In this document: in pieces, positions 1,280 through 31,870 of the stretch
Layout of the letters: each line of letters opens with the position of its first letter
Numbering within the stretch: position 1 is the stretch's first letter
Assembly: GCA_964373495.1 (NCBI GenBank)
Contig: CAYJUW010000001.1
Coordinates: forward strand, 1-36,197
Reading direction: 5' to 3'
Length of the DNA: 36,197 bases
Source: an uncultured Candidatus Saccharibacteria bacterium
GTDB lineage: Bacteria > Patescibacteriota > Minisyncoccia > Sungbacterales > SURF-37
The notes under the pieces: generated by a model
What the model was told of the DNA's origin: nothing
Seen by the model: only the letters and a program-made list of their open reading frames with translations
The model's database searches: none
Translations under genes and position numbers: made by a program

Positions 1280-1471
1280 TCAGTCGAGGATAGCCACATC
1301 CTCCTGCCTCACCGTGAGGCGGGTGCCGTCACCGCACTCAAGGGTGATCAGCTCCTCACCCACCGCGACGATCGGGAGTATGGAACCCTCGAGCTGCCCG
1401 AGATCGACCTCTTCGCCGTCCTCGGCGATCCCGACGAGGTCGTGCCATCTGCAGAGGATCTCCCCCCTCAT
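1280..1471 (-). CDS. Hypothetical small acidic protein (63 aa)
   Basis: ORF with a GGAGG Shine-Dalgarno about 9 nt upstream of ATG 1471 (cctGAGGAGGgataccaaaATG). No family recognised. Confidence 0.5.
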   Translation of the reverse strand: MRGEILCRWHDLVGIAEDGEEVDLGQLEGSILPIVAVGEELITLECGDGTRLTVRQEDVAILD

Positions 1472-1485
1472 TTTGGTATCCCTCC

Positions 1486-1614
1486 TCAGGGCGCGGTCAC
1501 GAGTTTAAAGATCGCATAGCCGATCACCGCCCACATGAAGGCGCCGATGATCACTCCCCGGATGATGCTTTTCCGCGCCGAAGTCTCGATTGGTATTGGT
1601 TCACCGTCCCACAT
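1486..1614 (-). CDS. Hypothetical 42-aa single-TM peptide (MWDGEPIPIETSARKSIIRGVIIGAFMWAVIGYAIFKLVTAP)
   Basis: Translated by hand; it is below the ORF-track cutoff. A GGAGGG SD lies 7 nt upstream of ATG 1614, and the stop TGA is at 1488-1486. Confidence 0.5.
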   Translation of the reverse strand: MWDGEPIPIETSARKSIIRGVIIGAFMWAVIGYAIFKLVTAP

Positions 1615-1690
1615 CTTTAGCCCTCCGTTTGTGTTGTGATGGCGCCATGGAAGATGCTGTTTCTAATCTAGATTCTTCTATCGTCCCCTG

Positions 1691-3154
1691 TCAAGGTCTC
1701 AGGCTCTTTACTGCCCGTACGAACTTTTCCCCGCGGTCAAATTCGTGCCTGAACAGTCCAAAGCTCGCCGCGCCCGGCGAGAGCAGCACCGCGTCCCCCC
1801 GCTTGGCATTGCGGTAGGCCACCCGCACCGCCATCGCCATCGTCCGCGCATCCCGAATACTTAAATACTGTACAGTATTTAAGTATTCGCCATGTGCGCC
1901 GGGCTTTTGCCCCGTTTGCCCCTGGTGGAACATTTGCCGCCCCAAGGCCTTTTGCATTTTGTCGGTTGCTGTACCGGGCAGGAATGTTACGGAAGCTGCA
2001 TTCTCGCGGAGCGCCCGCATGAACTGACTAGCCGCTAGACCCTTGTCGTAACCGCCGGCGATGACGTGGAGACCGTGATGCCCGATGCCTCGCTTGGTGG
2101 CGATGATCGCTTGCTCCGCCGCCGTGGGATTCGTCGCCGTCGTGTCATTGATGAAGGAAACCCCGCGGACTTTCCGTACAAGCTCCATGCGGCCGGGCAT
2201 GCCGCGGAAGCGGGCGAGCGCGGTTCGGACGGCGCGCTCCCCTACTCCGGTATGCCGGGCGATGGCAACGGCCCCGGCGATGTTCGGGATATGGAACGCG
2301 GGAATGTTTTTTGCCAGCGCGTCACGGTAGCGACGCAAAATTTTCTGGGAATCGAAACGGATGACGCGCGATGGTGTATTACGGGCTATGCGCCGGAGCA
2401 GCGGATCACGGGCGTTGACGAACAGCATGTCACCGCGTTTCTGGAATTTGAAAATGTTCGCCTTGGATGCGATGTAGGCGGCCATCGAAGGGTAGCGGTT
2501 CAAGTGATCCGGAAAGATGTTGGTGATGAGGGCGATCGCCGGGCTCCGGCGGCTGTTCTTTAGCGAATCTAGTTGGAAACTCGATAGTTCCAGCACCACA
2601 AGGTCGTTTTTACGCACCCGTAACAGGAATTCAAGAACGGATTTCCTGATGTTGCCGCCGAGCCACACTCGGGATCCGCGTCTGATCCGCGTAGCCGATC
2701 CGCGTGGGATCCGCGGAGATTCCCCATGCCGCATCTCGGCACGGAGCATTGAGGCCAACAGGGTTGCGGTTGTTGACTTCCCTTTCGTACCGGTGATGCC
2801 GATGATCGGCGCCGGGCATCCGAGAAAAAAAATCTCAACATCGGAGAGGATGGAAACGCCGGCGCGCCTGGCGATTTTCAGAAACTTTGAGTTTTCGGGT
2901 ACGCCGGGGCCCTTGATGATGTAGTCAGCGATTTTGAAATCAGCCGGCCGGTGCCCGCCGAGGCGGTAGGTGATGTTTTTGAAGCGGCGGAGTTTGGCAA
3001 TGGTCGGCGCAAGTTGCCGTTTCGTTTTCAGATCAGTGACGATCACGTGGCTTCCCAAGCGGGAGAAGAAAGCAGCGGCGCCGGCGCCGCCTCCGTGCAA
3101 CCCCAATCCCATGATGAGGGCTTTTTTATTTTTGAAATCAGCGAGCTTCAGCAT
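1691..3154 (-). CDS. murD: UDP-N-acetylmuramoylalanine--D-glutamate ligase (MurD) with two unusual in-frame inserts
   Basis: N-terminal GLGLHGGG Rossmann motif, P-loop GITGTKGKSTT, and C-terminal LLSPGAASFGLFRHEFDRGEKF, which is typical of MurD. 487 aa. Confidence 0.9.
   Translation of the reverse strand: MLKLADFKNKKALIMGLGLHGGGAGAAAFFSRLGSHVIVTDLKTKRQLAPTIAKLRRFKNITYRLGGHRPADFKIADYIIKGPGVPENSKFLKIARRAGVSILSDVEIFFLGCPAPIIGITGTKGKSTTATLLASMLRAEMRHGESPRIPRGSATRIRRGSRVWLGGNIRKSVLEFLLRVRKNDLVVLELSSFQLDSLKNSRRSPAIALITNIFPDHLNRYPSMAAYIASKANIFKFQKRGDMLFVNARDPLLRRIARNTPSRVIRFDSQKILRRYRDALAKNIPAFHIPNIAGAVAIARHTGVGERAVRTALARFRGMPGRMELVRKVRGVSFINDTTATNPTAAEQAIIATKRGIGHHGLHVIAGGYDKGLAASQFMRALRENAASVTFLPGTATDKMQKALGRQMFHQGQTGQKPGAHGEYLNTVQYLSIRDARTMAMAVRVAYRNAKRGDAVLLSPGAASFGLFRHEFDRGEKFVRAVKSLRP
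1854..1889. repeat. 36-bp perfect palindrome CGAATACTTAAATACTGTACAGTATTTAAGTATTCG inside murD (GTAC-core AT-rich family)
   Basis: Arms checked base by base around the GTAC centre at 1870-1873. Encodes EYLNTVQYLSIR in the murD frame. Confidence 0.95.
2671..2715. repeat. Four closely spaced GATCCGCG copies (2673, 2684, 2697, 2708) inside murD
   Basis: Sequence is GGGATCCGCGTCTGATCCGCGTAGCCGATCCGCGTGGGATCCGCG. It encodes the Arg/Ser-rich stretch PRIPRGSATRIRRGSR between the P-loop and the GGNI motif. Confidence 0.85.
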
Positions 3155-8515: not shown

Positions 8516-9471
8516 GGCGCCAGGGTGAAGTTTGATTCCAGCCACTGGATGAGCGCCCGGCCGTCGCCGAAGCGGTCGCGGGATTTTAAGAGCACGATGG
8601 CGATGAGCTCGTCGGGTGAGAGCCGGTAGAGCATGGCCAACGCCCCTTGGGCATTATCGTCGAATCCTGTCTTTGAGCCGTAGATCGCCGGATACTCCGT
8701 GAGGAGCGGGTTCGTGTTGATGACGCCATAGCGCCGGCCGGAGGCGCCAAAGACGAAGGTCTCGCGGATCCGCGTGGTGGCCCAGAGCTCGGGCCGCTCC
8801 TCGGTGATGAATGCGGCCAGGCGCGTCAGGTCCCGGGCCGTGGAGTAGTTCTCGGGATCATCGCTCCCGCCGGGGTTGGCAAAGCGGGTGTCGGCGAGGC
8901 CGAGGGTCGCGGCGCGCTCGTTCATGAGGGCGACGAAGGCGCGGGTGCGCTCCGCAAAGGGCGCGCCGCCGAGCTCGGGCCGTTTCAGTAGGGCAACGTA
9001 TTCGGCCGCGGCGTAGGCGGCATCGGCGTCCGAGGAAACCAAGAGGATCCTCAACGCATCCTCGGCTTTTAGGGTATCTCCGGCCAGCACGGCGCTCCGT
9101 TTTTCATCCGGGCTCCCCGCGCCTCTGGCCTCGGCGCTGAAGGGGATTGCCCGGAGCGGTTCAACGGACTCGGCCAGGACGAGCGCGGTCATGAGCTTGG
9201 TTAAGCTGGCGATGGGCAGGCGGCGGCCGGGTTCCCGTTCAAAGAGCACCTCGCCGGTTTTGAGGCGCTCTAGCCGGACGGCCAATGCGCTCACCTCCGG
9301 CGGGGGGGCGCCGGCTTTCAAGAGTAAGCGCGGCGCGGACGGTTTCAGATCGGTGCCGATCGCAGTCGTCTCGAGCTTTGGCTTCCCGGCGGTGAGCGAG
9401 ATGCCGGCCAAGAGGGTCGCGAGCGCTAAGATCAAGATTACGGTTTTGGCAATCACAGAGGTAGGTATCAT
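8512..9471 (-). CDS. Serine-type D-Ala-D-Ala carboxypeptidase (peptidase S11, PBP5/6-like)
   Basis: N-terminal signal/TM segment and the SxxK motif in IASLTKLMTALV. Cell-wall gene neighbourhood. Confidence 0.8.
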   Translation of the reverse strand: MIPTSVIAKTVILILALATLLAGISLTAGKPKLETTAIGTDLKPSAPRLLLKAGAPPPEVSALAVRLERLKTGEVLFEREPGRRLPIASLTKLMTALVLAESVEPLRAIPFSAEARGAGSPDEKRSAVLAGDTLKAEDALRILLVSSDADAAYAAAEYVALLKRPELGGAPFAERTRAFVALMNERAATLGLADTRFANPGGSDDPENYSTARDLTRLAAFITEERPELWATTRIRETFVFGASGRRYGVINTNPLLTEYPAIYGSKTGFDDNAQGALAMLYRLSPDELIAIVLLKSRDRFGDGRALIQWLESNFTLAP

Positions 9472-9479
9472 GAGGCGGA

Positions 9480-10022
9480 TCAGCGGAGCGATGACTCTGG
9501 ATCGGCGGGAACGGCGATGGGTTCTTTTTGAAATGTCCCGTACTCCGGCAGCTCCGAGACGTTGGTGATGCCCAGGTGCTTCAGGAAATCGTGCGAGATG
9601 CGGTAGAGGTAGGCGCGCCGGTCTTTGGGGTTTTCCTCGCGGCTGACCAGACCCCGGATCAAGAGGTTCCGGAGCGTGAAGGAGGAGTCAACCCCGCGGA
9701 TGTATTCGATTGCCGCGCGGCTGATCGGCCCTTTGTAGGCGATGATGGCCAGCACCTCAAGCGAAGCGCGGGAGAGGTCTTCGGAGAGTTCGCTTGCGGC
9801 GAACTTTTCGACTACGGCTTTATGCGCGGGGTTGGTTGCGAATTGCCACTCCTCGCCGTTGGAGACGAGCTGAATCCCCCGTTCCCGGTACTCGGCTTGG
9901 AGTTCGCGCAGTGCGCCCTCAACTTCTTCCTTTGGAGCGCCGGCGGCTTTGGCCAGACGCGAAAGCGTCATCGAACTCCCCTGCATGAACAGCAAGCTCT
10001 CAATTAATGATGTTAAGCGCAT
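9480..10022 (-). CDS. scpB: Segregation and condensation protein B (ScpB)
   Basis: LIESLLFMQGSSMTLSRLAKA... with a tandem winged-helix layout, 180 aa. Confidence 0.85.
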   Translation of the reverse strand: MRLTSLIESLLFMQGSSMTLSRLAKAAGAPKEEVEGALRELQAEYRERGIQLVSNGEEWQFATNPAHKAVVEKFAASELSEDLSRASLEVLAIIAYKGPISRAAIEYIRGVDSSFTLRNLLIRGLVSREENPKDRRAYLYRISHDFLKHLGITNVSELPEYGTFQKEPIAVPADPESSLR

Positions 10023-10048
10023 GGAGCAGACAGCGTAACCGCCCGGCC

Positions 10049-10082
10049 TAATACTGTAATACTGTACAGTATTACAGTATTA
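10049..10082. repeat. 34-bp perfect palindrome TAATACTGTAATACTGTACAGTATTACAGTATTA (variant of the GTAC-core family)
   Basis: Checked base by base. Lies 14 nt downstream of the TrpR-like gene stop. Shares the core AATACTGTACAGTATT with 1854, 10652 and 24710. Confidence 0.95.
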
Positions 10083-10095
10083 CCTTGGGGTCTAT

Positions 10096-10617
10096 TTAGT
10101 AGCGCGCTTTAGCCAGGAGTAACTTAGCATCTTTGTAAATTTTTCTCTTATGATCGAGGTTGTCAATTACCTGATAAATTCGTTCACGCTCTTTTCGCGA
10201 CGCTGTTTCAAGCAGTTCCTGTATCAGCAACTGCGGCCAATAGTAGAGCGGATACTTTTTATGGATCGGCGGTCCATAGCTTCGGTTTGCACTTCGTTGT
10301 CGTTGCGAGCGCTGATACAGGAGGCGAAAGCCCGCACCCGAGTGCTGGAGCCAGGCACTTACCCGCGCAATGGTCGGTTCACTTACCTTCATTCGCTTTC
10401 TGATTTCTTCGTAGGTTTCGCCCTCAATGAGTAGAGTTGCAATTTTTAAGCGTTTGGCCAACATTTCCAGCTCTTGGCGCGAAACAAGATCCCCGAAGAC
10501 TTGGGCGGCCTCCTCCACGCCGCGTATGGTTCCCAGGCTGCGGAAAAATTCAAAAAGCAGTTCGTCTCTTTCTTTCCGGGACAGCTTGAGGCTGAATTTT
10601 TTCATCCGGCCGGTCAT
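10096..10617 (-). CDS. TrpR-related YerC/YecD-family DNA-binding protein with a C-terminal extension
   Basis: DELLFEFFRSL...QELEMLAKRLKIATLLIEGETYEEIRKRMKVSEPTIARVSAWLQ matches the YerC/YecD Trp-repressor-like fold pattern. Visibly lower GC than the neighbouring genes. Confidence 0.75.
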   Translation of the reverse strand: MTGRMKKFSLKLSRKERDELLFEFFRSLGTIRGVEEAAQVFGDLVSRQELEMLAKRLKIATLLIEGETYEEIRKRMKVSEPTIARVSAWLQHSGAGFRLLYQRSQRQRSANRSYGPPIHKKYPLYYWPQLLIQELLETASRKERERIYQVIDNLDHKRKIYKDAKLLLAKARY

Positions 10618-10651
10618 TGGTTCTCAGCTTCTTAACGCCACGTCATCGGAT

Positions 10652-10683
10652 AATACTTAAATACTGTACAGTATTTAAGTATT
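10652..10683. repeat. 32-bp perfect palindrome AATACTTAAATACTGTACAGTATTTAAGTATT
   Basis: Checked base by base. Lies 35 nt upstream of the TrpR-like gene start at 10617. Confidence 0.95.
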
Positions 10684-10766
10684 GGTATCGAGCTGGCTGG
10701 TCCAGAATGGCTTTTGATCCGTCAGCCATTTCTGGACAGCTTCTTCGTTCTATCGTCCTATCGTCT

Positions 10767-11480
10767 TCAGAGTGCCTTTCGGATTTTTATATCGCCGAAA
10801 AGCCCTTTCTGTTCAATCGTAACAAGTTTCTGTTTGGCCAACTCGAGCAAGGCCAGGAAACTCACAATGATCTCGACCTTCTCCCGGGCACCGGCGACGA
10901 GCTCGGAGAAGGCCCGCTCCACTTTTTTGCGCAGGAAGGCCTGGAGCTCTGCGATCTTCTCCTCCAGCGATATGATTCTCTTTAATTTTTCCTCAGCCAG
11001 CTTTTCGATCTTCGGGAGTGCGTCAATCACCCGCTGGAAAGCCCCGACGAGCATGGTCAGCGTGAATCGCTTGGGTGGATAGAAGACCGGGAGCCGGCCG
11101 GCGTAGGCCTCGCGGGAGAAGGACTTTGGACCGCCTGAGGCCATCTGGCCGATCCGGATGGCAAGCTCCTTGAAGCGCTTATACTCCTCCAGGCGCTGCT
11201 CGAGTTCGGCAATGGATTCCTCCTCTTCGGCGTTTGTCTGGAACTGCGGCAGCAAGCTGCGCGATTTGATGAGGAGCAACGTCGCCGCCACGACCAAGAA
11301 CTCGGCTAAAATTTCCTGGTCAGCTTCCCCCTTGGCCTGGAGCCCCCGCAGGTACCCGATAAATTTATCCGTGACGTTGGCCAGCGAAATTTCGTTGATG
11401 GCGAGCTTTTCGCCCTGAATGAGCTCGAGCAGCAGGTCGAGCGGCCCCTCAAACTTTTCTTGCTTGATCGTGTAGGGCAT
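10767..11480 (-). CDS. scpA: Segregation and condensation protein A (ScpA)
   Basis: EKFEGPLDLLLELIQGEKLAINEISLANVTDKFIGYL is the ScpA N-terminal signature. I place the start at ATG 11480 (MPYTIKQ). Confidence 0.85.
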   Translation of the reverse strand: MPYTIKQEKFEGPLDLLLELIQGEKLAINEISLANVTDKFIGYLRGLQAKGEADQEILAEFLVVAATLLLIKSRSLLPQFQTNAEEEESIAELEQRLEEYKRFKELAIRIGQMASGGPKSFSREAYAGRLPVFYPPKRFTLTMLVGAFQRVIDALPKIEKLAEEKLKRIISLEEKIAELQAFLRKKVERAFSELVAGAREKVEIIVSFLALLELAKQKLVTIEQKGLFGDIKIRKAL

Positions 11481-11524
11481 CCGGGTGGGAGAAATTCTAA
11501 ATCCGAAGCACAAAATTCGAAACA

Positions 11525-11570
11525 AATCTCAAATTCAAAATTCCAAATCCCAAACGCGTTTCTGATTTGG
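11525..11570 (-). terminator. Terminator-like hairpin after aspS
   Basis: On the minus strand, CCAAATC-AG-AAACG/CGTTT-GG-GATTTGG (11543-11570) is followed by AATTTTGAATTTG. Confidence 0.5.
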
Positions 11571-11592
11571 AGTTTGAAACGTTGGCATTTGT

Positions 11593-12993
11593 CTAGGATT
11601 CCGGATTTTGAGTTTCACGCTTCACTTGGAGGCCGACCTCCTCAAGCTGCTTCGGATCAACCTCCGATGGCGTATTCATCATAGGATCGCGGGCGTCACC
11701 TGTTTTGGGGAAGGCCATGACCTCGCGAATCGAGGGCTCGTTCTGGAAAACCGCGACCAGGCGGTCAATTCCGGATGCAATGCCGCCGTGGGGCGGGGCG
11801 CCGTAGGTGTAGGCCTCGAGAAGATGGCCGAATTTCTCCTGGATTTCCTCGTTCGAATAGCCGAGGATGCCAAAAATCTTTTTTTGCAGGTCGGGACTGG
11901 TAATGCGGATGCTGCCGCCGGCGATCTCGTAGCCGTTTAGTACGAGATCGTACTGCAGCGAGCGCACCTTGAATGGGTCGGTATCGAGGAGCGGGATATC
12001 TTCCGTTTGCGGCGCGGTAAAAGGATGGTGCGAGGGTGAAATCTCCTGCGTTTCGGTTTTTCCGAAGAGCGGAAAGTCAGTCACCCAGGCGAAGGCCATC
12101 ACATTCGGATCTTTGTCCTCGCGGAGGTCAAATTTATCGGCGTCAAAGCGCTTCAGGGCTTCCCCGTGCGTGAGCCGCGGGAACGGTTTTTTGAATACCG
12201 TTTTGCCGGCAACTTTCTCGGCAAGATCGATATAGAGTTCCTCGATCAACGCGAGCACATCCTCGCGCTCGGCAAAGGCCATCTCAATATCAAGCTGCGT
12301 GAATTCCGGCTGGCGGTCGCCCCGCGTGTCTTCGTCCCGGAAACAGCGCGCAATTTGGAAGTAGCGCTCAAATCCGGCCGCCATCAAAAGCTGCTTATAC
12401 TGCTGGGGCGACTGCGGCAGGGCGTAGAACGTTCCGGGCTGGAGGCGCGAGGGCACGATGTAGTCCCGAGCGCCTTCGGGCGTTGATTTGGTGAGGATGG
12501 GGGTTTCGATTTCAATAAAGTTCTTTTGGCGCAGGAAATCCCGGATTGCTGCAATGATTCTGTCCCGCAGGACGATGTTTTGCGTTAACCGCTCGCGGCG
12601 GAGGTCGAGGTAGCGGTACTTTAGCCGGAGCTCTTCGTCAATATCGAGCCCCGGCGTGTCGAGCGGGAAGGGCGGTGTCTTGGCCTCGTTCAAGACCTCG
12701 AGCTTCTCAACCGGCAGCTCTACGGATCCGGTGGGAATGGCCGGATTTTCCATGCCTTGGGGCCGTTCGCGGACCGCGCCCTCGACGGCGATCACCCACT
12801 CCGGCCGGAGCTTCTCGGCTCTGGCGTAGAGCTCGGCATTATCCGGCCGAAAGACCAGCTGCAAGACTCCCGAGCCGTCCCGGAGGTCAATAAAAATAAG
12901 CTTGCCGTGGTCGCGCCGGCTTCCCACCCACCCGGCTACCCGGACTTGTTCTCCCACCCGTTTGGCGGTCGCACCCGTAAGAATCCGCTCCAT
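11593..12993 (-). CDS. aspS: Aspartate--tRNA ligase, bacterial-type catalytic core but lacking the GAD insertion domain
   Basis: FYALPQSPQQYKQLLMAAGFERYFQIARCFRDEDTRGDRQPEFTQLDIEMAF, HHPFTAPQ and GGIASGIDRL. ATG 12993 is the likely start; the track start at 13014 is a TTG. Confidence 0.9.
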   Translation of the reverse strand: MERILTGATAKRVGEQVRVAGWVGSRRDHGKLIFIDLRDGSGVLQLVFRPDNAELYARAEKLRPEWVIAVEGAVRERPQGMENPAIPTGSVELPVEKLEVLNEAKTPPFPLDTPGLDIDEELRLKYRYLDLRRERLTQNIVLRDRIIAAIRDFLRQKNFIEIETPILTKSTPEGARDYIVPSRLQPGTFYALPQSPQQYKQLLMAAGFERYFQIARCFRDEDTRGDRQPEFTQLDIEMAFAEREDVLALIEELYIDLAEKVAGKTVFKKPFPRLTHGEALKRFDADKFDLREDKDPNVMAFAWVTDFPLFGKTETQEISPSHHPFTAPQTEDIPLLDTDPFKVRSLQYDLVLNGYEIAGGSIRITSPDLQKKIFGILGYSNEEIQEKFGHLLEAYTYGAPPHGGIASGIDRLVAVFQNEPSIREVMAFPKTGDARDPMMNTPSEVDPKQLEEVGLQVKRETQNPES

Positions 12994-22252: not shown

Positions 22253-23524
22253 ATGTGGCTCGCAGTAGAAAAATTCCTTATCGCGTTCTTCCTGCCAATC
22301 CTCGGGTTTTTCTCGTTTCCGAACCGCGAGGCCGTACCGCCGCCCGCTGGGCTGGCAGCGGCGGTTGAGCAAACCGTTCCGCAGCCGACGATGCGGGGCG
22401 CTGCCACAAATGATGCAAAGGCCGCTCCTTCAGCAAGCTCAGGGCAGGTATATGCCGCAAAGGACTTATCGCTCGCGGCCCTGAAGGATTGCCTGAACCG
22501 CGCCGGTGAGAGCGGAAGCTGCCTCGATGCCATATTCCAAGATTTTTTTAAAATTCACACCACGGCAGACGCGCTCATCGCCCTCGGGCGCTACCAGGAA
22601 GCCGATACCGCTCTAAAACTCTCCTGCCACCCGGTCGTTCATGCCATCGGCCGCGAGACCTTCCGCCTCAAGGGCACGGTGCAGGATTCCTTTGCCGAGT
22701 GCGATCAGACCTGCCATTCCGGCTGCTACCACGGGGCCATGGAGCGGTTCCTGCGGGGCAATGCGGCGAGCGACGATGAAGCCGGGCACATCAGCGTGGA
22801 GGAGCTCCGACAAAAAGCGGCCCAGGCCTGCGATCCCAACCAGCCCACGCGCTTCCGCTTCCAATGCCTGCACGGCCTCGGCCATGCGCTGATGTTTTTC
22901 TCCGACTACCGGCTCGGCGAAGCGTTGGCTTCCTGTGACGTGCTGTCGGATGGTTGGAGCCGGAGTTCATGCTACGGCGGGCTCTTCATGGAAAACGTGT
23001 TTTCCGCCACGCCCGAAAAGCGCGATCTATCCCCTCATGACTACCACTACCCGTGCAACGTGCTCGATGAGAAATACCGGAGCGACTGCTACATGATGCA
23101 GACCACGCGTATGACCGAGATGGGCTTGGGGACGGAGCGTCTGTTTGAGGAGTGCCGTAAGGCCCGCCTGCCGGACGGGCAGGCCGGCGGGTACCAATTC
23201 ATCTGCATGCAGTCCATCGGCCGCGATCTTTCGAATGACGCCCGCATCGGCGATCCCCGGCTCGTGGCCCAAAAGTGCGAACTCGGGAGCGGCGAGGAAC
23301 GGCGGGCCTGCACCCGCGGCGTGGTCTACGCCCTGATTGACAACACCTGGGACGGCCGCTACGCCATGCCTTTTTGCAACACTTTTGGCGCCGCGGAGGA
23401 CGTTTCCTACTGCTACACGGCAAGTGCGGCCTACCTCCGAGCGACGTTTGAGAAGAGCGGGGCCGACATTGCGGCCGACTGCCATGCCTACGCGGCCGGG
23501 GTGTCGGCGTGCCTGCCCCGTTAG
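22253..23524 (+). CDS. Membrane-anchored Cys-rich repeat protein, function unknown
   Basis: N-terminal TM segment (FLIAFFLPILGFFSF). Repeated C-x(2-4)-G/H-containing units (CHSGCYHGAMERF, CLHGLGHALMF, CYGGLFMENVF, CMQSIGRDL, CTRGVVYAL). A GAGGTG SD lies 6 nt upstream. Confidence 0.7.
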   Translation: MWLAVEKFLIAFFLPILGFFSFPNREAVPPPAGLAAAVEQTVPQPTMRGAATNDAKAAPSASSGQVYAAKDLSLAALKDCLNRAGESGSCLDAIFQDFFKIHTTADALIALGRYQEADTALKLSCHPVVHAIGRETFRLKGTVQDSFAECDQTCHSGCYHGAMERFLRGNAASDDEAGHISVEELRQKAAQACDPNQPTRFRFQCLHGLGHALMFFSDYRLGEALASCDVLSDGWSRSSCYGGLFMENVFSATPEKRDLSPHDYHYPCNVLDEKYRSDCYMMQTTRMTEMGLGTERLFEECRKARLPDGQAGGYQFICMQSIGRDLSNDARIGDPRLVAQKCELGSGEERRACTRGVVYALIDNTWDGRYAMPFCNTFGAAEDVSYCYTASAAYLRATFEKSGADIAADCHAYAAGVSACLPR

Positions 23525-23578
23525 AGGCCCGCGCCTTGGGCGCGGCAGTCGCCTCTGGCGACTTGCCTCTAACGGGGC
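23515..23578. repeat. CCCCGTTAGAGGC three-way hairpin element; probable bidirectional terminator
   Basis: Outer stem GCCCCGTTAGAGGC (23515-23528) pairs with GCCTCTAACGGGGC (23565-23578) and encloses the hairpins CCGCGCC-TTG-GGCGCGG and AGTCGCC-TCT-GGCGACT. The TAG stop of the 22253-23524 gene lies inside the left arm. Confidence 0.85.
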
Positions 23579-23599
23579 TGGGCTGCGGCCGGTGGCTAG

Positions 23600-25444
23600 C
23601 TACTGCGGGAGCTCAAATTTAAATACCCGAAACGCGACTTCATTTCGCGGATTTCGGATTTCTTCCGGCACCACGCCCTTGGCGCGGAGTTCGGCTTCCA
23701 AGAGGTCACCGTCCGGCGCGGCTGGCCGGGGGCGATCCTGAAGGGCGTATGCCAAAGGGTTGAAGAAGTAGATTTTCTGAACGCCGGATTGCCGGAGGAA
23801 CTCGGCCGCTCCCCCGCGCCGGAAGTTTTCTGCGCTCACCACCGGCCAGCCCTGGTAGGTGATGCGCCGCAGGAAGACCCAGAGCTGGGCGGCGAGGTTG
23901 ATGTTGTCGTTGTAGACGATGCCGAGCGGTGTTGGCTTGAGTTTCTGGCGTCTGCCTTCGGCAGCCGCTTGATTCAAAAGTTCATGCGCGAACGGAAATT
24001 CAAAGGTGATGGCCGGATCCGGCATCTTGCCCGCCAGCTCCTGGCCGAGGTAGGCGTTCAGCTTGTTGAATCCCCAACTCCCGGTTTGGCGGTGGAGGTA
24101 GGAGTAGGCCCAGGGCTTCTCGCCAACCGGATCGAGGGCTATAACGCTGTTGTAAGCATAAAAGGCCTCAAAGGCGACAAAAGCCGCAAAGGCCGCAAAG
24201 ACAATGGCGGGCGATTTCATTCCTAAATTCCTAGGAATATTGGAATAGATTGTTGCGCTGATGGCGTAGCCGGCGGCAATGGCCAGCCACGGGGTGAGCA
24301 GGGCCAGGAAGCGGTGCGCCGGACCGATGAATACGAGGAACGGCAGGAGCCAGATAAAAACAATGGCTAATGGCGAATGGCTGGTGGCTAAGGTACGGCG
24401 GCGGATTAGCTCCCAGAAGATTGCGACGAGACCGGTAACAGAAAGAATGAGGAAGTAGGGCGAGTTGGCCTCGATGAGCCGCGGCACGTACATCCGTACG
24501 CGATCGGAGAGCGACCCGAGTACTTCCTGCCCCGGCCGCGCCTGCCATTCCGGCACATCCTGTCTAAAGAGGAGCGAAAATTGAAAATCAAAGTGGCCGA
24601 AATGGCGGTAGAGTTGAATATTGTAGATAATCACCGGACTTGCGATGACCAGAAAGGCCATGACCGAAAGTAAAACATGTTTGGCGGGGAAACGCCGCCC
24701 CCATCGTCCAATACTTAAATACTGTACAGTATTTAAGTATTTAATTTGGAGGAGGTAGAGGGTCAGTAATATCGGTGCGAGGATCGCGGCGAGGTACTTC
24801 GCGAGGAAGGCAAAGCCAAGGAGCGCGCCGGAAAGGGGCAGCCACCACGAGGAGTTTCGCTTCGTCGTTGCGAAGCTGGGCGTCGTGTCAAGACCGCGCA
24901 GAAACGCCCAGAACGACGCAAGCATGAAGGCGATGAGGACGGATTCCTGCAGGCCGATCCGGGAGATCCAGACGTGATTGGCGGTGACGGCAAAGAGCAA
25001 AGCGCTTATCGCCCCTACGGTTGGCGAATAACTATGGAAGCCCGACTTCAATAGTTTGCCGCCTATTGAAGTCGGACTTCCATAGATTCCAGAGAGTTGG
25101 GCGCCAATGAGGTAGACGAAAATGACCGCGGCGATGCCGGCAAGCGCCGAGGGCAGGCGCACGGCAAAGGGCGTCTCGCCGAAGAGTTTCATGGAATAGT
25201 GCTGCAGTAAAAACACCAGCGGCGGGTGGTCGTGGAAGGAAAGGCGCATCCACCACGGGGGCTGGGTGTCAATCCACTGCCACGGCGTGGGCTGTTCGAT
25301 CCCGAAATCAAAATCCACGAGGCCGATAGCCCGCGTGGCATAGGAGGACTCGTCGGTTACGATGTCCGGCCGGCCGAGATGCCAGAAATAAAAAACAGCC
25401 GTGAGGCAGAGAAGACCGCCTATCAGCCAATTCTGGGACTTCAT
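23600..25444 (-). CDS. ArnT/PMT-family (GT39/GT83-like) membrane glycosyltransferase with a C-terminal soluble extension
   Basis: N-terminal DESSYATRAIG loop motif, more than 10 TM segments, about 614 aa. The track start at 25447 is a GTG and ATG 25444 is adjacent. Confidence 0.75.
   Translation of the reverse strand: MKSQNWLIGGLLCLTAVFYFWHLGRPDIVTDESSYATRAIGLVDFDFGIEQPTPWQWIDTQPPWWMRLSFHDHPPLVFLLQHYSMKLFGETPFAVRLPSALAGIAAVIFVYLIGAQLSGIYGSPTSIGGKLLKSGFHSYSPTVGAISALLFAVTANHVWISRIGLQESVLIAFMLASFWAFLRGLDTTPSFATTKRNSSWWLPLSGALLGFAFLAKYLAAILAPILLTLYLLQIKYLNTVQYLSIGRWGRRFPAKHVLLSVMAFLVIASPVIIYNIQLYRHFGHFDFQFSLLFRQDVPEWQARPGQEVLGSLSDRVRMYVPRLIEANSPYFLILSVTGLVAIFWELIRRRTLATSHSPLAIVFIWLLPFLVFIGPAHRFLALLTPWLAIAAGYAISATIYSNIPRNLGMKSPAIVFAAFAAFVAFEAFYAYNSVIALDPVGEKPWAYSYLHRQTGSWGFNKLNAYLGQELAGKMPDPAITFEFPFAHELLNQAAAEGRRQKLKPTPLGIVYNDNINLAAQLWVFLRRITYQGWPVVSAENFRRGGAAEFLRQSGVQKIYFFNPLAYALQDRPRPAAPDGDLLEAELRAKGVVPEEIRNPRNEVAFRVFKFELPQ
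24710..24741. repeat. 32-bp perfect palindrome AATACTTAAATACTGTACAGTATTTAAGTATT inside the glycosyltransferase CDS
   Basis: Identical to 10652-10683. Encodes KYLNTVQYLSIG in frame. Confidence 0.95.
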
Positions 25445-26232: not shown

Positions 26233-27342
26233 TTATATCCCTTCCTCTCGCAATCTCTCTACTGCCTCGCGCGCCTTGCGCGAGATGTGCCGCGGGGTGA
26301 GCACCTTGATTTCCACCAGCAAATCCCCCCGGCCGTAACCGCGCGGATGCGGCACGCCTTTGCCGCGGACTTTCAAAATGTCGCCGGATTCCGTGCCCTC
26401 GGGGATTTTTAGCTTGATCGCGCCTTCCGGCGTCTTGACCTCCACCGAGTCGCCGAGCGCGGCCTGGGTGAACTTGATGGCCAGCTGCATGACCAGGTCA
26501 TTGCCCTGCCGGCGGAATACCTTATCCGGCCGCACCCGCATTTTGACATAGAGATCGCCGGGTACGCCGGCATGGGGCGAGGCCTCGCCCTTGCCCGAAA
26601 TTTTCATGAGCTCGCCGTCCTCAACGCCTTTGGGGATGAAGATCTCGATGGTTTCCATACGCTTGGTTGCGCCCCGGCCGCCGCATTCCCGGCAGGCCGC
26701 TTCCGGAATCTCGCCCCGGCCCTGGCAGGCCGGGCAGGGCGTAATCTGCGAGAAGGCGCCCAGAAACGTCCGCTGGGTGCGTTCCACCCGGCCTTGCCCC
26801 TGGCAACTGCCGCACTTTTGCATTTTCGTTTCCGGTTCCGCGCCCGTCCCTCCGCAGCGTTCGCAGGTCGAGATCTTGTTGATGCCCGCCGAGTGTCGGC
26901 CGCCAAAGATAATCTCCTCAAAGGGGATTTCAAGCTCAATCTGAATATCGCGGCCTTTCTTGGAGCGGCGGCGGGCGTCCACGCCGCCAAAGCCGAATCC
27001 CGGGAACACGTCTTCGAAAATGTCCGAGAAGTCAAAATCGCCGAAGCCGCGGAAATCTTCGCCAACGCCGAAGCCGCCAAAGCCGGCGCCGGGCTGCCAC
27101 TCAAACCCGCCGGCCGAGGGTCCGCGGCCGGCCTCAAAGACCGCGCCGAATTGATCGTACTGGGCGCGCTTGGACTCGTCGCCCAGCACCTGGTAGGCCT
27201 CGTTTACCTCCTTGAACTTGGCCTCGCTCCCGCCCTGCTTGTCCGGGTGATGCTGGTGGGCCAGGCGGCGGTAGGCCTTCTTCACGTCCTCTTTGGTCGC
27301 ATTCCGCGGTACGCCGAGGATTTTATAGTAATCTCGCGCCAT
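26233..27342 (-). CDS. dnaJ: Molecular chaperone DnaJ
   Basis: J domain DYYKILGV...HPDK, a G/F-rich linker, and four CxxCxGxG zinc-finger repeats. Confidence 0.95.
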
Positions 27343-27344
27343 AT

Positions 27345-28304
27345 TCAGAGCATGATTCTTACGACCTCGATGGTTTCAACTTTCTCCGTGAGCAGTCCGG
27401 CCTTGAGCATTAATTTTACCATGGCAAAAAGCAGAATCAAGCTGATCCAGTACACCGGGAGGGTGAGCATTTTGATGGCGATAAAGAAGCCGGCTGCGGC
27501 CAGGAACGGGAGGTAGGCGCGGTACGGCCCGGCGAGCTTTTCGATTTGGGTATTGGCTACGCGGTAGATGAGGTCCCCGCCGCGCTCCTCACCGGTGAGC
27601 TCGACCCCGAGCTCCTGGGCCAGCGCCCCCCGGTTCTCGCGCAGGAACTGGGCGCGCTCGGCCGCGGAGAGCTTTCGGACATCAATGTCAGGGCCGCCCT
27701 GCCACGCGGCAAAGGCCAGGAGCAGTTCGTCCACGGTGGCATCGCGGCGGAAGCCGGGCAGGAAATTTTGCAGCGGCTGCTCAATCAGGGGTATGGCGGC
27801 ATCGAAAAGGGCTTTGGGTAGGATGCTCTGGGTGGCCGCGCCCGAGACCGCGGTGAAGTAGAAGACGGCCAGGGTCAGGGCCACGGCGGTGAAGAATACC
27901 GGCAGGCCGCCGCGGAAAATTTTCCGCACGGCAAAGGCGTTGGAAATTCGGTACTCGCCGGCAATGGCATCGCTGGCGTACCAGCCGGCCGCGGCGCTGG
28001 CCGCGGCCGCGGATGCGGCCAGCGTGGTTGCCGGAACCAGGAGATAGCCGCCGGCAAGGGCCATCATGGCCGAGACCGTGCGCAAGGCCGGTCGCGTGAT
28101 AAAGGCCGAGGAAAGCGCAAAGAGGATGGCAAACAAAAAGAGCGCGATGACCGGCAGGGAGTAGAAGGTGAGACCGGCAAACCCCGTTAGATGCTCCGCG
28201 TCTAACGGGGCAAGCAGCACGCCTTTCCAGAGGTAGGCGTTGGCAAGGCCGGCCGCGACGGTGAGAACTCCAAGCGTGTATTCTTTCCAGTCTGGCTGTT
28301 GCAC
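27345..28304 (-). CDS. Hypothetical multi-TM membrane protein
   Basis: ORF with a GTG start. Its stop is 2 nt from the dnaJ ATG, which suggests coupling. No family recognised. Confidence 0.6.
28182..28210. repeat. CCCCGTTAGA-N9-TCTAACGGGG hairpin inside the 27345-28304 CDS
   Basis: Arms at 28182-28191 and 28201-28210. Encodes [10 protein letters not shown] in frame. Confidence 0.9.
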
Positions 28305-28350
28305 GGATACGTTCTGAGTGTTATCTTACTACGAAAGAGGTAAAGGACGT

Positions 28351-28596
28351 ATGGAGGAGACGAAGATGTTGAGTGAGTTCCTTGTCCTGGTAAAAGTTTT
28401 AGGACTTCTATTCGTCTATCTCTCCGGGCCGGTGGTAATCATTACGGTGGGCGGTTCACTTCTTTTACAGAAACTTTTCCGTTTTCCATTGGCGCAGAGA
28501 ATGCCTCCATTATCGCGTGTTGAGCTCATTGCATTCGGGATTCCCACAGCAGCAAGCTTGGCGGCCTGGGGCTGGCGGCTCTGGCGGCTTCTCTAA
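28351..28596 (+). CDS. Hypothetical small membrane protein (81 aa), low GC
   Basis: AAAGAGGTAAAGGA SD region upstream of ATG 28351. Two or three hydrophobic segments. Followed by an imperfect hairpin and TTTTCTTTTT at about 28628-28665. Confidence 0.5.
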   Translation: MEETKMLSEFLVLVKVLGLLFVYLSGPVVIITVGGSLLLQKLFRFPLAQRMPPLSRVELIAFGIPTAASLAAWGWRLWRLL

Positions 28597-28709
28597 GGCG
28601 AGTGGCCGCTCGCAACACGCTCACCAACGGTGCGAAGATCGCATCCGGTGGGCGTTTTCTTTTTCAAGGTATCTCCTCGACTGCGCTCGGAGAATGAAAA
28701 TCTTCGGTA

Positions 28710-28849
28710 ACCGCACCGTACGCGGTGCGGTATCTGATTTTGAACGAGATCCCTCGTCCCGCTTTCGGCGGGACTCGGGATTATTGTTTGTTCCCGCCAT
28801 TCATCCGCGCCGCCCAGCGGCGCGGTATTCTGGCGGACAAACAATAAAA
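28710..28849. repeat. Three-hairpin structured element, copy C
   Basis: 138/140 identical to 19898-20037. The mismatches are at 28719 and 28734. Confidence 0.9.
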
Positions 28850-28852
28850 CGG

Positions 28853-28941
28853 TAGTCCCTGAGCTTAGTTTACCCTGAGCCCGTCGAAGGGAAGGGCTAC
28901 CATAATAAATTTGGTATGCCTTCGACGAGTTCAGACAATAC
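28853..28941. repeat. Left flank of the GIY-YIG gene: one inverted and one direct hairpin unit
   Basis: TAGTCCCTGAGC...GTCGAAGGGAAGGGCTACCAT (28853-28903) faces GGTATGCCTTCGACGAGTTCAGACAATAC (28913-28941). Confidence 0.8.
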
Positions 28942-28944
28942 GGG

Positions 28945-29238: not shown

Positions 29239-29361
29239 TCAGGCAGTACTTTTTTTATTGTCGTGTCCTTGCGGTATGCCTTCGACCTGTGGTGAGCCAG
29301 TCGAACCCACAAGCTCAGGCAATATCTTTTTAGTCCCTGAGCGAAGTCGAAGGGCTGCCAT
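29221..29361. repeat. Right flank of the GIY-YIG gene: two direct units and one inverted unit
   Basis: GGTATGCCTTCGATACACTCAGGCAGTAC (29221-29249), GGTATGCCTTCGAC..CTCAGGCAATATC (29273-29326), and TAGTCCCTGAGCGAAGTCGAAGGGCTGCCAT (29331-29361). The block ends 1 nt from the dnaK stop. Confidence 0.8.
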
Positions 29362-29362
29362 G

Positions 29363-31258: not shown

Positions 31259-31282
31259 ATTGTTTATGATAATACGATTTTC

Positions 31283-31867: not shown

Positions 31868-31870
31868 AGC

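What the first reader, a model, noticed from the sequence alone, without database searches (positions are those of the whole stretch)
10049..10683. Low-GC TrpR-like (YerC/YecD) gene bracketed by two GTAC-core palindromes and wedged between scpA and scpB
scpA and scpB are normally adjacent. Here they are separated by a visibly AT-richer 0.6-kb segment carrying a YerC/YecD Trp-repressor-like gene. One palindrome lies 35 nt upstream of its start (10652-10683) and a variant lies 14 nt past its stop (10049-10082). Both share AATACTGTACAGTATT. There are two non-exclusive readings. (a) The palindromes are the operator of this regulator. E. coli TrpR operators are also AT-rich palindromes containing GTAC and ACTAGT-type half-sites, though the resemblance is only qualitative. 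(b) The gene plus its flanking palindromes form an inserted cassette, and the palindromes found elsewhere are its footprints or dispersed binding sites. The TTTAGTACTAAA repeats at 17166-17202 look like a related half-site type.
Basis: inference. Interest (0 to 1): 0.7.

Follow-up and report, generated by a model that had tools for sequence, protein, structure and literature searches.

The report
Palindrome-bracketed TrpR-like regulator module
A small DNA-binding protein gene of uncultivated CPR (Patescibacteria) bacteria is flanked on both sides, in nearly every lineage examined, by a conserved 28-32-bp palindrome that is most likely its own binding site. Extra copies sit in front of, and occasionally in frame inside, other genes, many of them cell-envelope genes, and this gene-plus-sites unit does not seem to have been described before.

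Summary
Perfect palindromes at 10049-10082 and 10652-10683 bracket a TrpR/YerC-like gene lying between scpA and scpB. The shared 16-mer occurs 4 times in the window (0.01 expected). Both are read in frame (YLNTVQYLSI) inside murD and a GT39 glycosyltransferase, and both are insertions absent from 38 and 120 homologues.

Comparative data change the picture. "Site-gene-site" is a family-wide unit of a CPR-specific long form (about 170 aa) of the HisR/YerC regulator. It is found in Sungbacteria, Doudnabacteria, Saccharibacteria and others, at genome GC of 0.33-0.59 and in differing gene neighbourhoods.

The palindrome carries four TACT half-sites. They form two HisR-geometry operators (YACT-N12-AGTR) offset by 8 bp.

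Best reading: an autoregulated repressor with its cognate double operator, possibly tied to cell-wall and envelope genes.

The "freshly inserted cassette" reading fails for this lineage, because the synteny is old. Over deeper time, however, the unit does occupy different slots of the same conserved gene block.

Three features keep a mobile-element component alive: all-or-none sites, palindrome-preserving covariation and in-frame insertions. The TTTAGTACTAAA repeats appear unrelated.

The parts
10652..10683 (.). Upstream site: a perfect 32-bp palindrome, AATACTTAAATACTGT|ACAGTATTTAAGTATT, with four TACT/AGTA half-sites. It lies 46 nt 5' of the probable start at 10605.
   Evidence: equivalent sites lie upstream of homologous genes in other genomes
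10096..10617 (-). Long-form YerC/HisR-type TrpR-family gene (stop codon 10096-10098; probable start 10605, 169 aa). The N-terminal ~100 aa are a TrpR-like HTH domain. The C-terminal ~70 aa form a helical extension with a conserved KYPxYYWPQ motif.
   Evidence: Pfam and NCBIfam; alignment; AF2 model with pLDDT 79; fold and sequence matches to 3frw, 3kor and 3g1c for the N-terminal part only; no Pfam hit for the C-terminal part
10049..10082 (.). Downstream site: a perfect 34-bp palindrome variant (TGTA/TACA instead of TTAA at the variable dinucleotides). It lies 13 nt 3' of the stop codon and 26 nt 5' of the scpB start.
   Evidence: equivalent sites at or just after the stop codon in other lineages
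1856..1887 (.). Solo site, identical to the 32-mer at 10652. It lies in frame inside murD (encoding YLNTVQYLSI), 165 nt before the murD stop and about 560 nt upstream of ftsW.
   Evidence: shared with the Sungbacteria relatives L003/L010/L011; absent from 38 other MurD homologues
24710..24741 (.). Solo site, identical to the same 32-mer. It lies in frame inside a GT39/PMT_2 glycosyltransferase and is a clean ~12-aa insertion relative to orthologues.
25032..25085 (.). A 54-nt hairpin within a ~63-nt in-frame insertion in the same GT39 gene, at the very point where the orthologues L004 and L056 carry the YerC-type palindrome. It shares ACTTCAATA...TATTGAAGT with the variant site. It may be a diverged derivative of that site, or a second element using the same loop.
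9480..10022 (-). scpB, the gene immediately downstream of the 3' site
10767..11481 (-). scpA, the gene upstream of the module (start taken at the ATG that fits homologues)

Best explanation
The 10049-10683 segment is one copy of a conserved CPR/Patescibacteria module.

**The protein.** The gene encodes a long-form HisR/YerC-type TrpR-family DNA-binding protein. It has a TrpR-like HTH domain plus a family-specific helical C-terminal extension of about 70 aa.

**The site.** The gene is flanked on both sides by the protein's cognate operator. The operator is a 28-32-bp palindrome, wwTACTnnAATACTnTAnAGTATTnnAGTAww, holding four TACT half-sites at 8-bp spacing. This equals two HisR-geometry sites (YACT-N12-AGTR) overlapping with an 8-bp offset. 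Two dimers, perhaps a tetramer held by the C-terminal extension, are expected to bind each site.

**Inferred mechanism.**
- The 5' site overlaps the gene's promoter or start region and gives autorepression.
- The 3' site either cooperates with the 5' site by looping or acts as operator or roadblock for the next gene, which here is scpB.
- The further identical sites, inside murD upstream of ftsW and inside a GT39 glycosyltransferase, would be additional targets that act as roadblocks or internal operators.
- Across genomes the module and its extra sites keep turning up in or next to cell-wall and envelope genes. The protein is therefore probably a CPR regulator of envelope biogenesis, in a role like that of MraZ.

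**What is shown.** The site-gene co-occurrence, the site architecture, the protein family, and the fact that the intragenic copies are insertions.

**What is inferred.** Binding, repression, looping, the effector and the regulon.
For: 1. **Family membership.** The N-terminal domain passes Pfam PF01371 and NCBIfam TIGR02531. It matches HisR-type structures 3frw, 3kor and 3g1c by sequence (1e-15 to 1e-16) and by fold (TM about 0.8 over the target). The recognition helix TIARV resembles the HisR/TrpR helix.
2. **Half-site and spacing.** The published HisR motif is cacTTTA-N6-TAAAgtg, which is CACT-N12-AGTG; the TrpR half-site is GNACT (PMC9413887). The 32-mer holds TACT at positions 3-6 and 11-14 and AGTA at 19-22 and 27-30. 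That gives two N12 pairs offset by 8 bp, read directly from the sequence.
3. **Bracketing, loci found by DNA pattern.** About 16 lineages have a site at -3 to +43 nt from the start and a site at -10 to +83 nt from the stop.
4. **Bracketing, loci found through the protein only.** Six of 7 unbiased loci show it (L010, L013, L060, L061, L063, L064; L062 is unclear). In the divergent members the flanking motif changes (for example ATAGT-N4-ACTAT), but both flanks change together. That is what a co-evolving regulator-operator pair would do.
5. **Conservation across genomes.** The identical 28-mer core occurs at genome GC of about 0.35 to 0.59 in several CPR phyla.
6. **Conservation inside murD.** The site is 30/30 identical between two lineages whose MurD proteins are 69% identical. 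The flanking loop is unalignable, and 9 of 10 codons in the motif are identical against a 51% background (my binomial estimate from those counts, p about 0.013).
7. **Position of solo sites.** Most solo sites lie 5-90 nt upstream of a start codon, often 5-12 nt with no Shine-Dalgarno sequence in between.
8. **Neighbourhoods and targets.** These repeatedly involve envelope genes: the dcw block in L010, L063 and L064; a site 6 nt upstream of murD in L038; MreB; UppP; RmlC; GT2-GtrA; and GT39 and GT4 for the intragenic sites.
Against: - No binding data exist.
- Sites are all-or-none. There are four near-perfect sites in 36 kb and nothing weaker, unlike the graded sites of a typical regulon.
- The intragenic copies are true insertions of the complete palindrome into protein loops. 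Operators do not normally arise that way.
- The variable positions covary so that the palindrome stays Watson-Crick perfect. This holds even between sites of one genome (pair 14-31: 30 double changes against 3 unpaired; covariation 0.236 against 0.06-0.09 for slid controls, 0/500 shuffles). A symmetric protein does not demand this.
- Some 3' sites and solo sites lie between convergent genes, where there is nothing to regulate (L009, L039, L043, L059).
- The genes next to solo sites are heterogeneous (GatA, PrfB, NUDIX, IMPDH, HIT and others), and the envelope enrichment was not tested statistically.
- Between the window and its 87%-identical relative L031, the two flanking sites differ at 3-4 of 32 positions, which is about the neutral rate.
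Confidence: 0.6

Rival explanations
1. The palindrome is a small self-propagating or duplicative DNA element. The TrpR-like gene flanked by two copies would be its dedicated trans-acting partner, analogous to a RAYT gene flanked by REP sequences. Solo copies would be non-autonomous insertions, some of them in frame in genes as with Rickettsia palindromic elements. Any regulatory effects would be secondary.
For: - Complete, identical 32-mers are inserted in frame into murD and GT39, and are absent from 38 and 120 homologues.
- Orthologous GT39 genes carry the element at two different positions.
- GT4 genes in other phyla carry a variant in their interdomain linker.
- The score distribution is all-or-none.
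- The palindrome is kept perfect by covariation, and symmetry extends into non-conserved flanks.
- Sites fill tiny intergenic gaps, including gaps between convergent gene ends.
- The site-gene-site unit occupies different slots of one conserved gene block, with clean empty sites (L064 and L063 against L010 and the window).
- The gene's GC3 is 0.49-0.59, both in Sungbacteria genomes whose typical GC3 is about 0.7-0.8 and in a Doudnabacteria genome with 47% overall GC.
- The same genome holds other in-frame hairpin insertions.
Against: - The protein has no recognisable catalytic domain: no HUH/Y1, DDE, or serine or tyrosine recombinase. The C-terminal part has no Pfam hit and no PDB fold match.
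- Copy number is low. Few pattern-matching sites were found per genome, for example 2 in a 554-kb contig and 3 in a 174-kb contig.
- The gene looks single-copy and syntenic within Sungbacteria.
- Sequence conservation across phyla is far higher than is usual for MITE-like repeats.
- No target-site duplications were seen.
Confidence: 0.17
2. The sites are chromosome-organising sequences, like parS/ParB, matS/MatP or NBS/Noc. A few highly conserved palindromes, tolerated inside genes, would be bound and bridged by a small protein with a helical oligomerisation tail. In Sungbacteria this would be linked to condensin through the gene's position between scpA and scpB.
For: - The palindromes are low in copy number and near-identical, and some are intragenic.
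- The gene lies between scpA and scpB in the window and in L010-L012 and L031.
- The gene is next to a ParA-like ATPase and near ParB in L061, and ParB lies 4 kb away in L064.
- The protein has a helical C-terminal extension.
Against: - The scpAB link is confined to one lineage. Elsewhere the gene sits by murD, murG/gltX, cofD, APH or GT clusters.
- The protein family consists of metabolite-responsive repressors.
- Canonical ParB is present in these genomes.
- No ori- or ter-centred clustering could be shown.
Confidence: 0.07
3. The palindromes act as RNA hairpins in the transcripts, serving as processing sites, stabilisers or terminators that insulate the small gene inside operons. The protein would be irrelevant to them.
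For: - All copies fold into stems of about 13-16 bp. Fragments of 56-58 nt centred on each copy fold with dG of -14 to -28 kcal/mol and z-scores of -4 to -8.
- The sites sit exactly at gene boundaries within co-directional operons.
- Covariation preserves pairing.
Against: - The sequence, and not just the pairing, is conserved across phyla.
- G-U pairs are almost absent at the covarying positions, which points to a DNA-level constraint.
- No U-tract follows the hairpin, and the terminator scan does not call them.
- There is no Rfam family.
- The strict linkage to one protein family would be left unexplained.
Confidence: 0.05
4. A recent horizontally acquired low-GC cassette split a previously adjacent scpA-scpB pair in this organism.
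For: - The gene's GC3 is 0.535, against 0.70-0.86 for most neighbours.
- scpA and scpB overlap in the more distant relative L064.
Against: - The same arrangement is kept in relatives whose protein is 64-96% identical (L010-L012, L031). Their copies show the same low GC3, so the state is old and the composition is a stable property of the gene.
Confidence: 0.04

Closest known systems
HisR (B. subtilis YerC) and E. coli TrpR: TrpR-family repressors with palindromic operators (PMC9413887; PDB 3frw, 3kor, 3g1c, 1tro, 1trr)
   Same: - The HTH domain is homologous, and the recognition helix is similar (xTIxRV).
- The half-site is of the NACT type.
- The HisR spacing, YACT-N12-AGTR, is reproduced.
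- The 8-bp offset between the two overlapping sites resembles the tandem TrpR binding named in the title of PDB 1trr; that tandem TrpR dimers sit 8 bp apart is recalled from the literature, not checked here.
- Candidate operators were also sought upstream of the hisR genes themselves in that study.
   Different: - The protein is about 170 aa rather than under 100-110 aa, with a conserved extra C-terminal helical region (KYPxYYWPQ).
- The operator is a doubled site of 28-32 bp with four half-sites.
- Sites flank the gene on both sides.
- No histidine or tryptophan genes are among the neighbours, and the effector is unknown.
- Some sites are in-frame insertions inside coding genes.
HrcA-CIRCE and similar phylum-spanning regulator/operator pairs
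   Same: A long, nearly perfect inverted repeat is conserved almost unchanged across distant lineages. It sits at the regulator's own operon and at a few other loci. This comparison rests on background knowledge.
   Different: CIRCE has a 9-bp spacer and a coherent chaperone regulon. It is not known to bracket its regulator gene on both sides or to be inserted in frame in genes.
MraZ, the autoregulated transcription factor of the dcw cell-wall and division cluster
   Same: A small autoregulated DNA-binding protein is encoded in or beside the mraY-murD-ftsW-murG block and binds repeated short motifs. This is a comparison of role only, from background knowledge.
   Different: The fold is unrelated. 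MraZ binds direct GTGGG repeats upstream of the cluster only. No homology is claimed.
REP/REPIN elements with their RAYT gene
   Same: A single-copy, vertically inherited gene is flanked on both sides by copies of a short palindromic repeat that is also dispersed in the genome.
   Different: RAYTs are HUH/Y1 transposase homologues, and REPs number in the tens to hundreds. Here there is no catalytic domain and only a few copies per genome.
Rickettsia palindromic elements (RPE)
   Same: Palindromic DNA is inserted in frame into protein-coding genes, adding a tolerated peptide in a loop.
   Different: RPEs are about 100-150 bp, are numerous, and have no dedicated binding-protein gene. Here the insert is 32 bp and is tied to a TrpR-like gene.
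ParB-parS and MatP-matS
   Same: There are few copies of a highly conserved palindrome. Intragenic copies are tolerated. The gene is adjacent to its own site(s), and in one lineage there is a genomic link to condensin genes.
   Different: There is no ParB or MatP homology, canonical ParB is present in relatives, and no positional clustering has been shown.

Membership tests
TrpR family / YerC-YecD (HisR) subfamily | TrpR-like HTH domain detected above curated thresholds | tested here: met
   PF01371 at 49.7 bits (cut-off 27); TIGR02531 at 52.8 bits (cut-off 42.2). The profile hits 3frw, 3kor and 3g1c at 1e-15 to 1e-16. The fold match has TM about 0.8 over the target.
TrpR family / YerC-YecD (HisR) subfamily | Short single-domain protein (<100-110 aa) | tested here: not met
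   The protein is 169-173 aa, and homologues are 160-214 aa. The conserved C-terminal extension (invariant Y122, Y125, W127, P128, K157) has no Pfam hit and no PDB fold match.
TrpR family / YerC-YecD (HisR) subfamily | Palindromic operator with NACT half-sites (HisR: CACT-N12-AGTG; TrpR: GNACT-N8) | tested here: met
   TACT-N12-AGTA occurs twice within the 32-mer, offset by 8 bp. This is read from the sequence and compared with the consensus quoted in PMC9413887. Binding itself was not tested.
TrpR family / YerC-YecD (HisR) subfamily | Regulon of histidine (HisR) or tryptophan/aromatic (TrpR) genes, with an amino-acid co-repressor | tested here: not met
   None of about 30 genes next to sites is a his or trp gene. 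Ligand binding is not testable here.
REP/RAYT-type system | Flanked gene encodes an HUH/Y1 (IS200/IS605-like) transposase homologue | tested here: not met
   Only TrpR-type and weak generic HTH-type hits were found in Pfam and NCBIfam. PADLOC gave none and PHROGs only a sub-threshold hit (phrog_645, E 0.0078).
REP/RAYT-type system | Gene flanked on both sides by the dispersed palindromic repeat | tested here: met
REP/RAYT-type system | Repeat present in tens to hundreds of copies per genome | tested here: inconclusive
   There are 4 copies in this 36-kb window, but only 1-3 pattern matches per large contig or MAG elsewhere. No complete genome could be scanned with a relaxed model.
Rickettsia-palindromic-element-like in-frame inserts | Palindromic repeat inserted in frame in coding genes without disrupting them | tested here: met
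   murD, GT39 (two positions) and GT4 linkers
Rickettsia-palindromic-element-like in-frame inserts | Element of about 100-150 bp with many copies | tested here: not met
   The conserved unit is 28-32 bp, and the flanks of the three identical copies share nothing.
ParB-parS / MatP-matS type chromosome organisers | ParB (or MatP) fold in the binding protein | tested here: not met
   Pfam and the fold search give TrpR only. Separate canonical ParB genes exist in L061 and L064.
ParB-parS / MatP-matS type chromosome organisers | Sites clustered in an ori- or ter-proximal domain | not testable with these tools
   No complete genome was available, and loci are limited to 20 kb.

The most novel reading that the evidence does not exclude
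The 32-bp palindrome is a minimal copy-and-paste DNA element. Its propagation or maintenance would depend on the TrpR-like protein that it brackets, making this a non-HUH analogue of the REP-RAYT partnership. It can land in frame inside essential genes such as murD, and it has been spreading ready-made operator sites through CPR genomes.
Probability: 0.15. Interest if true: 0.85.

Novelty: new variant of a known kind. Interest (0 to 1): 0.6.

Why it matters
- **Gene regulation in CPR.** CPR/Patescibacteria make up a large share of bacterial diversity, are mostly uncultivated, and their gene regulation is poorly known. This module would give one of the first sequence-defined, phylum-spanning regulator-operator pairs for them. 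The protein family has at least 100 clusters at 50% identity with E<=1e-30.
- **Directly testable.** The site is short and can be checked with purified protein and synthetic DNA.
- **Possible biology.** The module points to control of cell-wall and envelope genes in organisms whose epibiotic lifestyle depends on their surface.
- **Origin of binding sites.** The in-frame, perfectly palindromic insertions and the palindrome-preserving covariation raise the question of how regulator binding sites are born. They may sometimes arrive as small mobile or duplicative units and not by point mutation.

Tried and rejected
- **Rfam and tRNA scans.** A gathering-threshold Rfam scan of the window and L031 found only two tRNAs. 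Nothing matched the palindromes, the 165-nt insert in L031 or the 140-nt repeats.
- **Literature.** A full-text search for the 16-mer gave no papers. 'Candidate Phyla Radiation' plus 'Trp repressor' gave nothing relevant.
- **Defence and phage libraries.** PADLOC gave no hit for the protein and PHROGs only a sub-threshold one (phrog_645, E 0.0078).
- **Promoter and terminator scan of 9400-11700.** No promoter-like hit lies at the upstream palindrome. One hit (TTGACA-16-AAAAAT, 10166-10139, minus strand) lies inside the 3' end of the gene facing scpB, but hits were no more frequent than in shuffles. The palindromes are not called as terminators.
- **TTTAGTACTAAA repeats (17167-17201).** Rejected as related half-sites: the spacing is wrong and there is no occurrence in about 427 kb of related loci.
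- **Correlation between the residue before the recognition-helix Thr (P versus S/G) and ATACT versus ATAGT half-sites.** Rejected, because S/G-type proteins also occur with ATACT sites.
- **Target-site duplications and shared flanks among the three identical copies.** None were found.
- **Remnant of a site in the empty murG-gltX gap of L010.** Nothing convincing.
- **Assembly artefact.** Rejected. The sites are internal to long contigs, in frame, and recur in independent NCBI, JGI, ENA and Logan assemblies.
Full report
**1. The observation**

Three genes lie in a row on the minus strand:
- scpB at 9480-10022
- a 173-codon ORF at 10096-10617 with a Trp_repressor domain
- scpA at 10767-~11481

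Two perfect palindromes flank the middle gene: 10049-10082 (17-nt arms) and 10652-10683 (16-nt arms). Alignment with 24 homologues places the likely start at the ATG at 10605 (MKKFS...). The 5' palindrome then ends 46 nt upstream of the start, and the 3' palindrome begins 13 nt after the stop codon.

The shared 16-mer AATACTGTACAGTATT occurs four times in the window against 0.01 expected. A PWM trained only on sites from other genomes recovers exactly these four (47-59 bits). It finds nothing else at or above 12 bits and nothing in shuffles.

The segment is AT-richer than its surroundings. The gene has GC 0.49 and GC3 0.535, while most neighbouring genes have GC3 of 0.70-0.86.

**2.

The other two copies, at 1856-1887 and 24710-24741, are identical to the 32-mer at 10652. 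Both lie inside long ORFs:
- murD (Mur ligase domains; 3lk7 at 7e-49)
- a 615-aa GT39/PMT_2 glycosyltransferase

In both they are read in the same frame, as YLNTVQYLSI.

Both are insertions:
- 38 MurD homologues (32-57% identical in the C-terminal part) have 5-12 residues where the window has about 28. None carries the peptide.
- 120 GT39 homologues (38-62% identical) lack it, and the window shows a clean insert of about 12 aa.
- Only the Sungbacteria relatives L003/L010/L011 share the murD site. Their MurD is 69% identical. Thirty of 30 nucleotides are the same while the adjoining loop is unalignable, and 9 of 10 codons are identical against a 51% background. My binomial estimate from those counts is p about 0.013.
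- Orthologous GT39 genes in L004 and L056 carry the palindrome at a different point, between L and YS of a conserved LIGRRL|YSP motif. At exactly that point the window has a different insertion of about 63 nt containing a 54-nt hairpin (25032-25085). That hairpin shares ACTTCAATA...TATTGAAGT with the variant site.

**3. Related sequences**

A scan of one genome per GTDB species with TACTNNAATACTGTACAGTATTNNAGTA gave 9 loci. A metagenome scan with a slightly looser pattern gave 44. The titled GTDB records are MAGs labelled Sungiibacteriota, Doudnabacteria, Saccharibacteria or Patescibacteria, plus two labelled Gammaproteobacteria and two unclassified. Locus GC ranges from 0.31 to 0.59.

Wherever a whole homologue of the TrpR-like gene lay in a locus, it was bracketed. 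One site lay -3 to +43 nt before the start, often abutting or including the ATG. The other lay -10 to +83 nt after the stop, often overlapping it. One locus is an outlier: in L031 a ~165-nt insertion pushes the upstream site to 214 nt from the start (section 8).

Those loci were found through the DNA motif, so I also fetched loci through the protein alone. Six of seven show the bracket (unless stated):
- L010 (Sungbacteria) and L013 (Doudnabacteria) have the canonical motif.
- L064 has CATACTGTACAGTATG-type sites.
- L061 has an AATACTTCAATAATACGTAGTATTGAAGTATT-type site after the stop and a less regular related palindrome before the start.
- L060 and L063 have ATAGT-N4-ACTAT-type sites. These keep the 8-bp half-site periodicity, and the motif occurs only at the two flanks of the gene within 13-20 kb.
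- L062, the most divergent at 35% identity, is unclear.

So site-gene-site is a property of the family, and the site co-varies with the protein lineage.

**4. The protein**

The N-terminal ~100 aa pass Pfam PF01371 and NCBIfam TIGR02531. They match the HisR-type structures 3frw, 3kor and 3g1c by sequence. The AF2 model (pLDDT 79) matches them by fold, and E. coli TrpR more weakly.

Residues ~100-173 form three to four helices with an invariant KYPxYYWPQ-type motif. They have no Pfam hit and no PDB fold match. PADLOC gives nothing and PHROGs only a sub-threshold hit.

A profile search of 1.84 billion representatives finds 100 clusters with E<=1e-30, mostly full-length proteins of about 160-200 aa. 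It finds 1372 with E<=1e-10.

According to PMC9413887, B. subtilis YerC is HisR, a histidine-responsive repressor of under 100 aa. Its motif is cacTTTA-N6-TAAAgtg. TrpR recognises GNACT half-sites separated by 8 bp.

**5. Architecture of the site**

The consensus of 68 distinct sites is wwTACTnnAATACTnTAnAGTATTnnAGTAww. TACT lies at positions 3-6 and 11-14, and AGTA at 19-22 and 27-30. The 32-mer therefore contains two YACT-N12-AGTR units, which is the HisR geometry, overlapping with an 8-bp offset. From memory, this is the arrangement described for tandem TrpR dimers; the title of PDB 1trr, listed, says only 'tandem binding'. It predicts two dimers per site and suggests that the C-terminal extension mediates dimer-dimer contact. 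The geometry is read from the sequence and the published consensus. Binding is inferred.

**6. Features that do not fit a plain operator**

- Sites are all-or-none.
- The unconstrained positions covary so that the palindrome stays Watson-Crick perfect. Pair 14-31 has 30 double changes against 3 unpaired cells, and pair 13-32 has 15 against 4. The covariation score is 0.236, against 0.06-0.09 for slid controls, with 0/500 shuffles reaching it.
- In sites not ascertained by the scan pattern, symmetric double changes of the TACT half-sites occur about four times more often than independent decay predicts. The count is 12 observed against about 3 expected by my calculation from those counts.
- Symmetric variants coexist within one genome, for example TTAA and TGTA/TACA in the window.
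- G-U-type cells are rare, which points to a DNA-level rather than an RNA-level constraint.
- Pairing often extends a few bases into otherwise unconserved flanks.
- Some sites lie between convergent genes.
- Between the window and its 87%-identical relative L031, the flanking sites differ at 3-4 of 32 positions.

Together with the in-frame insertions, these features mean that new sites are probably born as whole palindromes by some copying process. Quasi-palindrome template switching or a mobile mechanism are candidates. They are unlikely to be assembled by point mutation.

**7. Genomic context**

Sungbacteria relatives (protein 64-96% identical) keep aspS-(HD)-scpA-(NUDIX)-[gene]-scpB-dac-mraY-amidohydrolase-murD-ftsW-murG-gltX. 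The gene has the same low GC3 there, 0.49-0.59. The split of scpA and scpB is therefore old, not a fresh insertion.

Other contexts:
- L064 (45% identical) has the same block with scpA and scpB overlapping. Its site-gene-site unit fills the murG-gltX gap, 611 nt against 33 nt in L010.
- L063 has the unit directly upstream of murD-ftsW.
- Other lineages place it beside glmS/cofD/sugar-nucleotidyl-transferase genes, GT clusters, an APH gene, or a ParA-like gene near ParB.

Genes just downstream of solo sites include MurD, MreB, UppP, RmlC and GT2-GtrA, with LemA a weaker case. They also include GatA, PrfB, NUDIX, IMPDH, HIT and others. Every intragenic site with an assignable host lies in an envelope enzyme: MurD, GT39 or GT4. 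The tilt toward envelope and cell-wall functions is suggestive but was not tested statistically.

Many solo sites end 5-12 nt before a start codon with no Shine-Dalgarno sequence in between. The core TAnAGT resembles a -10 hexamer on both strands. This is compatible with a promoter-operator giving very short leaders, but that is inference only.

**8. Conclusion**

*Best explanation (confidence about 0.6).* This is a CPR-specific long form of the HisR/TrpR regulator family, autoregulated through its cognate double operator. The operator brackets the gene, and a few additional targets exist. In this organism these would include scpB, the murD-ftsW region and a GT39 glycosyltransferase.

*Main rival (about 0.17).* The palindrome is itself a duplicative element partnered with the protein, REP-RAYT-like but without a catalytic domain. 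This reading best explains the insertions, the symmetry and the relocation of the unit. It is weakened by the low copy number and the absence of any enzyme.

*Other readings.* Chromosome-organiser and RNA-hairpin readings are possible but less supported. A recent horizontal insertion is largely refuted.

*Literature.* I found no description of this motif or module in the searchable literature.

*Classification.* I file it as a new variant of a known kind. It belongs to the TrpR/YerC family by domain. It fails the family's size and regulon criteria, and it adds a bracket architecture and in-frame site insertions that the family is not known for.

Noticed in passing
window 19898-20037, 28710-28849, 17992-18131: A 140-nt repeat. 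Two copies are 99% identical and a third is 60% identical. Each contains the hairpin CCGCCATTCATCCGCGCCGC-N3-GCGGCGCGGTATTCTGGCGG followed by ACAAACAATAAAAA. There is no Rfam match. It may be a small RNA gene family or another repeat element.
   Followed up: partly
window 25032-25085: A 54-nt hairpin with 23-nt arms (RNA dG -42 kcal/mol). It sits within a ~63-nt in-frame insertion in the GT39 gene, at the very residue position where the orthologues L004 and L056 carry the YerC-type palindrome. 40 aligned homologues have no insert there.
   Followed up: partly
window 17167-17290: An intergenic stretch packed with palindromes: the TTTAGTACTAAA repeats, a 38-bp perfect palindrome at 17207-17244 centred on GCGATCGC, and a further 13-nt-arm hairpin at about 17252-17281. 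TTTAGTACTAAA is absent from about 427 kb of related loci. Function unknown.
   Followed up: partly
window 20605-20680 and 23512-23581: Two hairpins share CCCCGTTAGAG / CTCTAACGGGG arms. This is another small repeated inverted-repeat family in the window.
   Followed up: no
L031:1341-1504: The closest relative (87% nt identity) has a GC-rich insertion of about 165 nt, full of hairpins, between the upstream palindrome and the gene start. It is absent from the window and has no Rfam match.
   Followed up: partly
window 1300-1690; L010:14326-14715: An unusually long (~390 nt) non-coding gap between murD and ftsW, conserved in length in the Sungbacteria relative. One assembly calls a 44-aa ORF there. 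It was not examined.
   Followed up: no
window 10096-10605; L010:8233-8742; L013:10001-10534; L031:1527-2036: The gene's GC3 stays at 0.49-0.59 both in Sungbacteria genomes (typical GC3 about 0.7-0.8) and in a Doudnabacteria genome with 47% overall GC. Its composition seems decoupled from the host genome.
   Followed up: partly
window 26233-32704: An ordinary heat-shock cluster on the minus strand: hrcA, grpE, dnaK, then two intervening stretches without a Pfam match, then dnaJ. It is unrelated to the finding.
   Followed up: no
L061:4637-5296: A gene with a weak Y1_Tnp (IS200/RAYT-like) hit lies 5 kb from the TrpR-like gene in one relative. This is probably coincidental and was not examined.
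   Followed up: no
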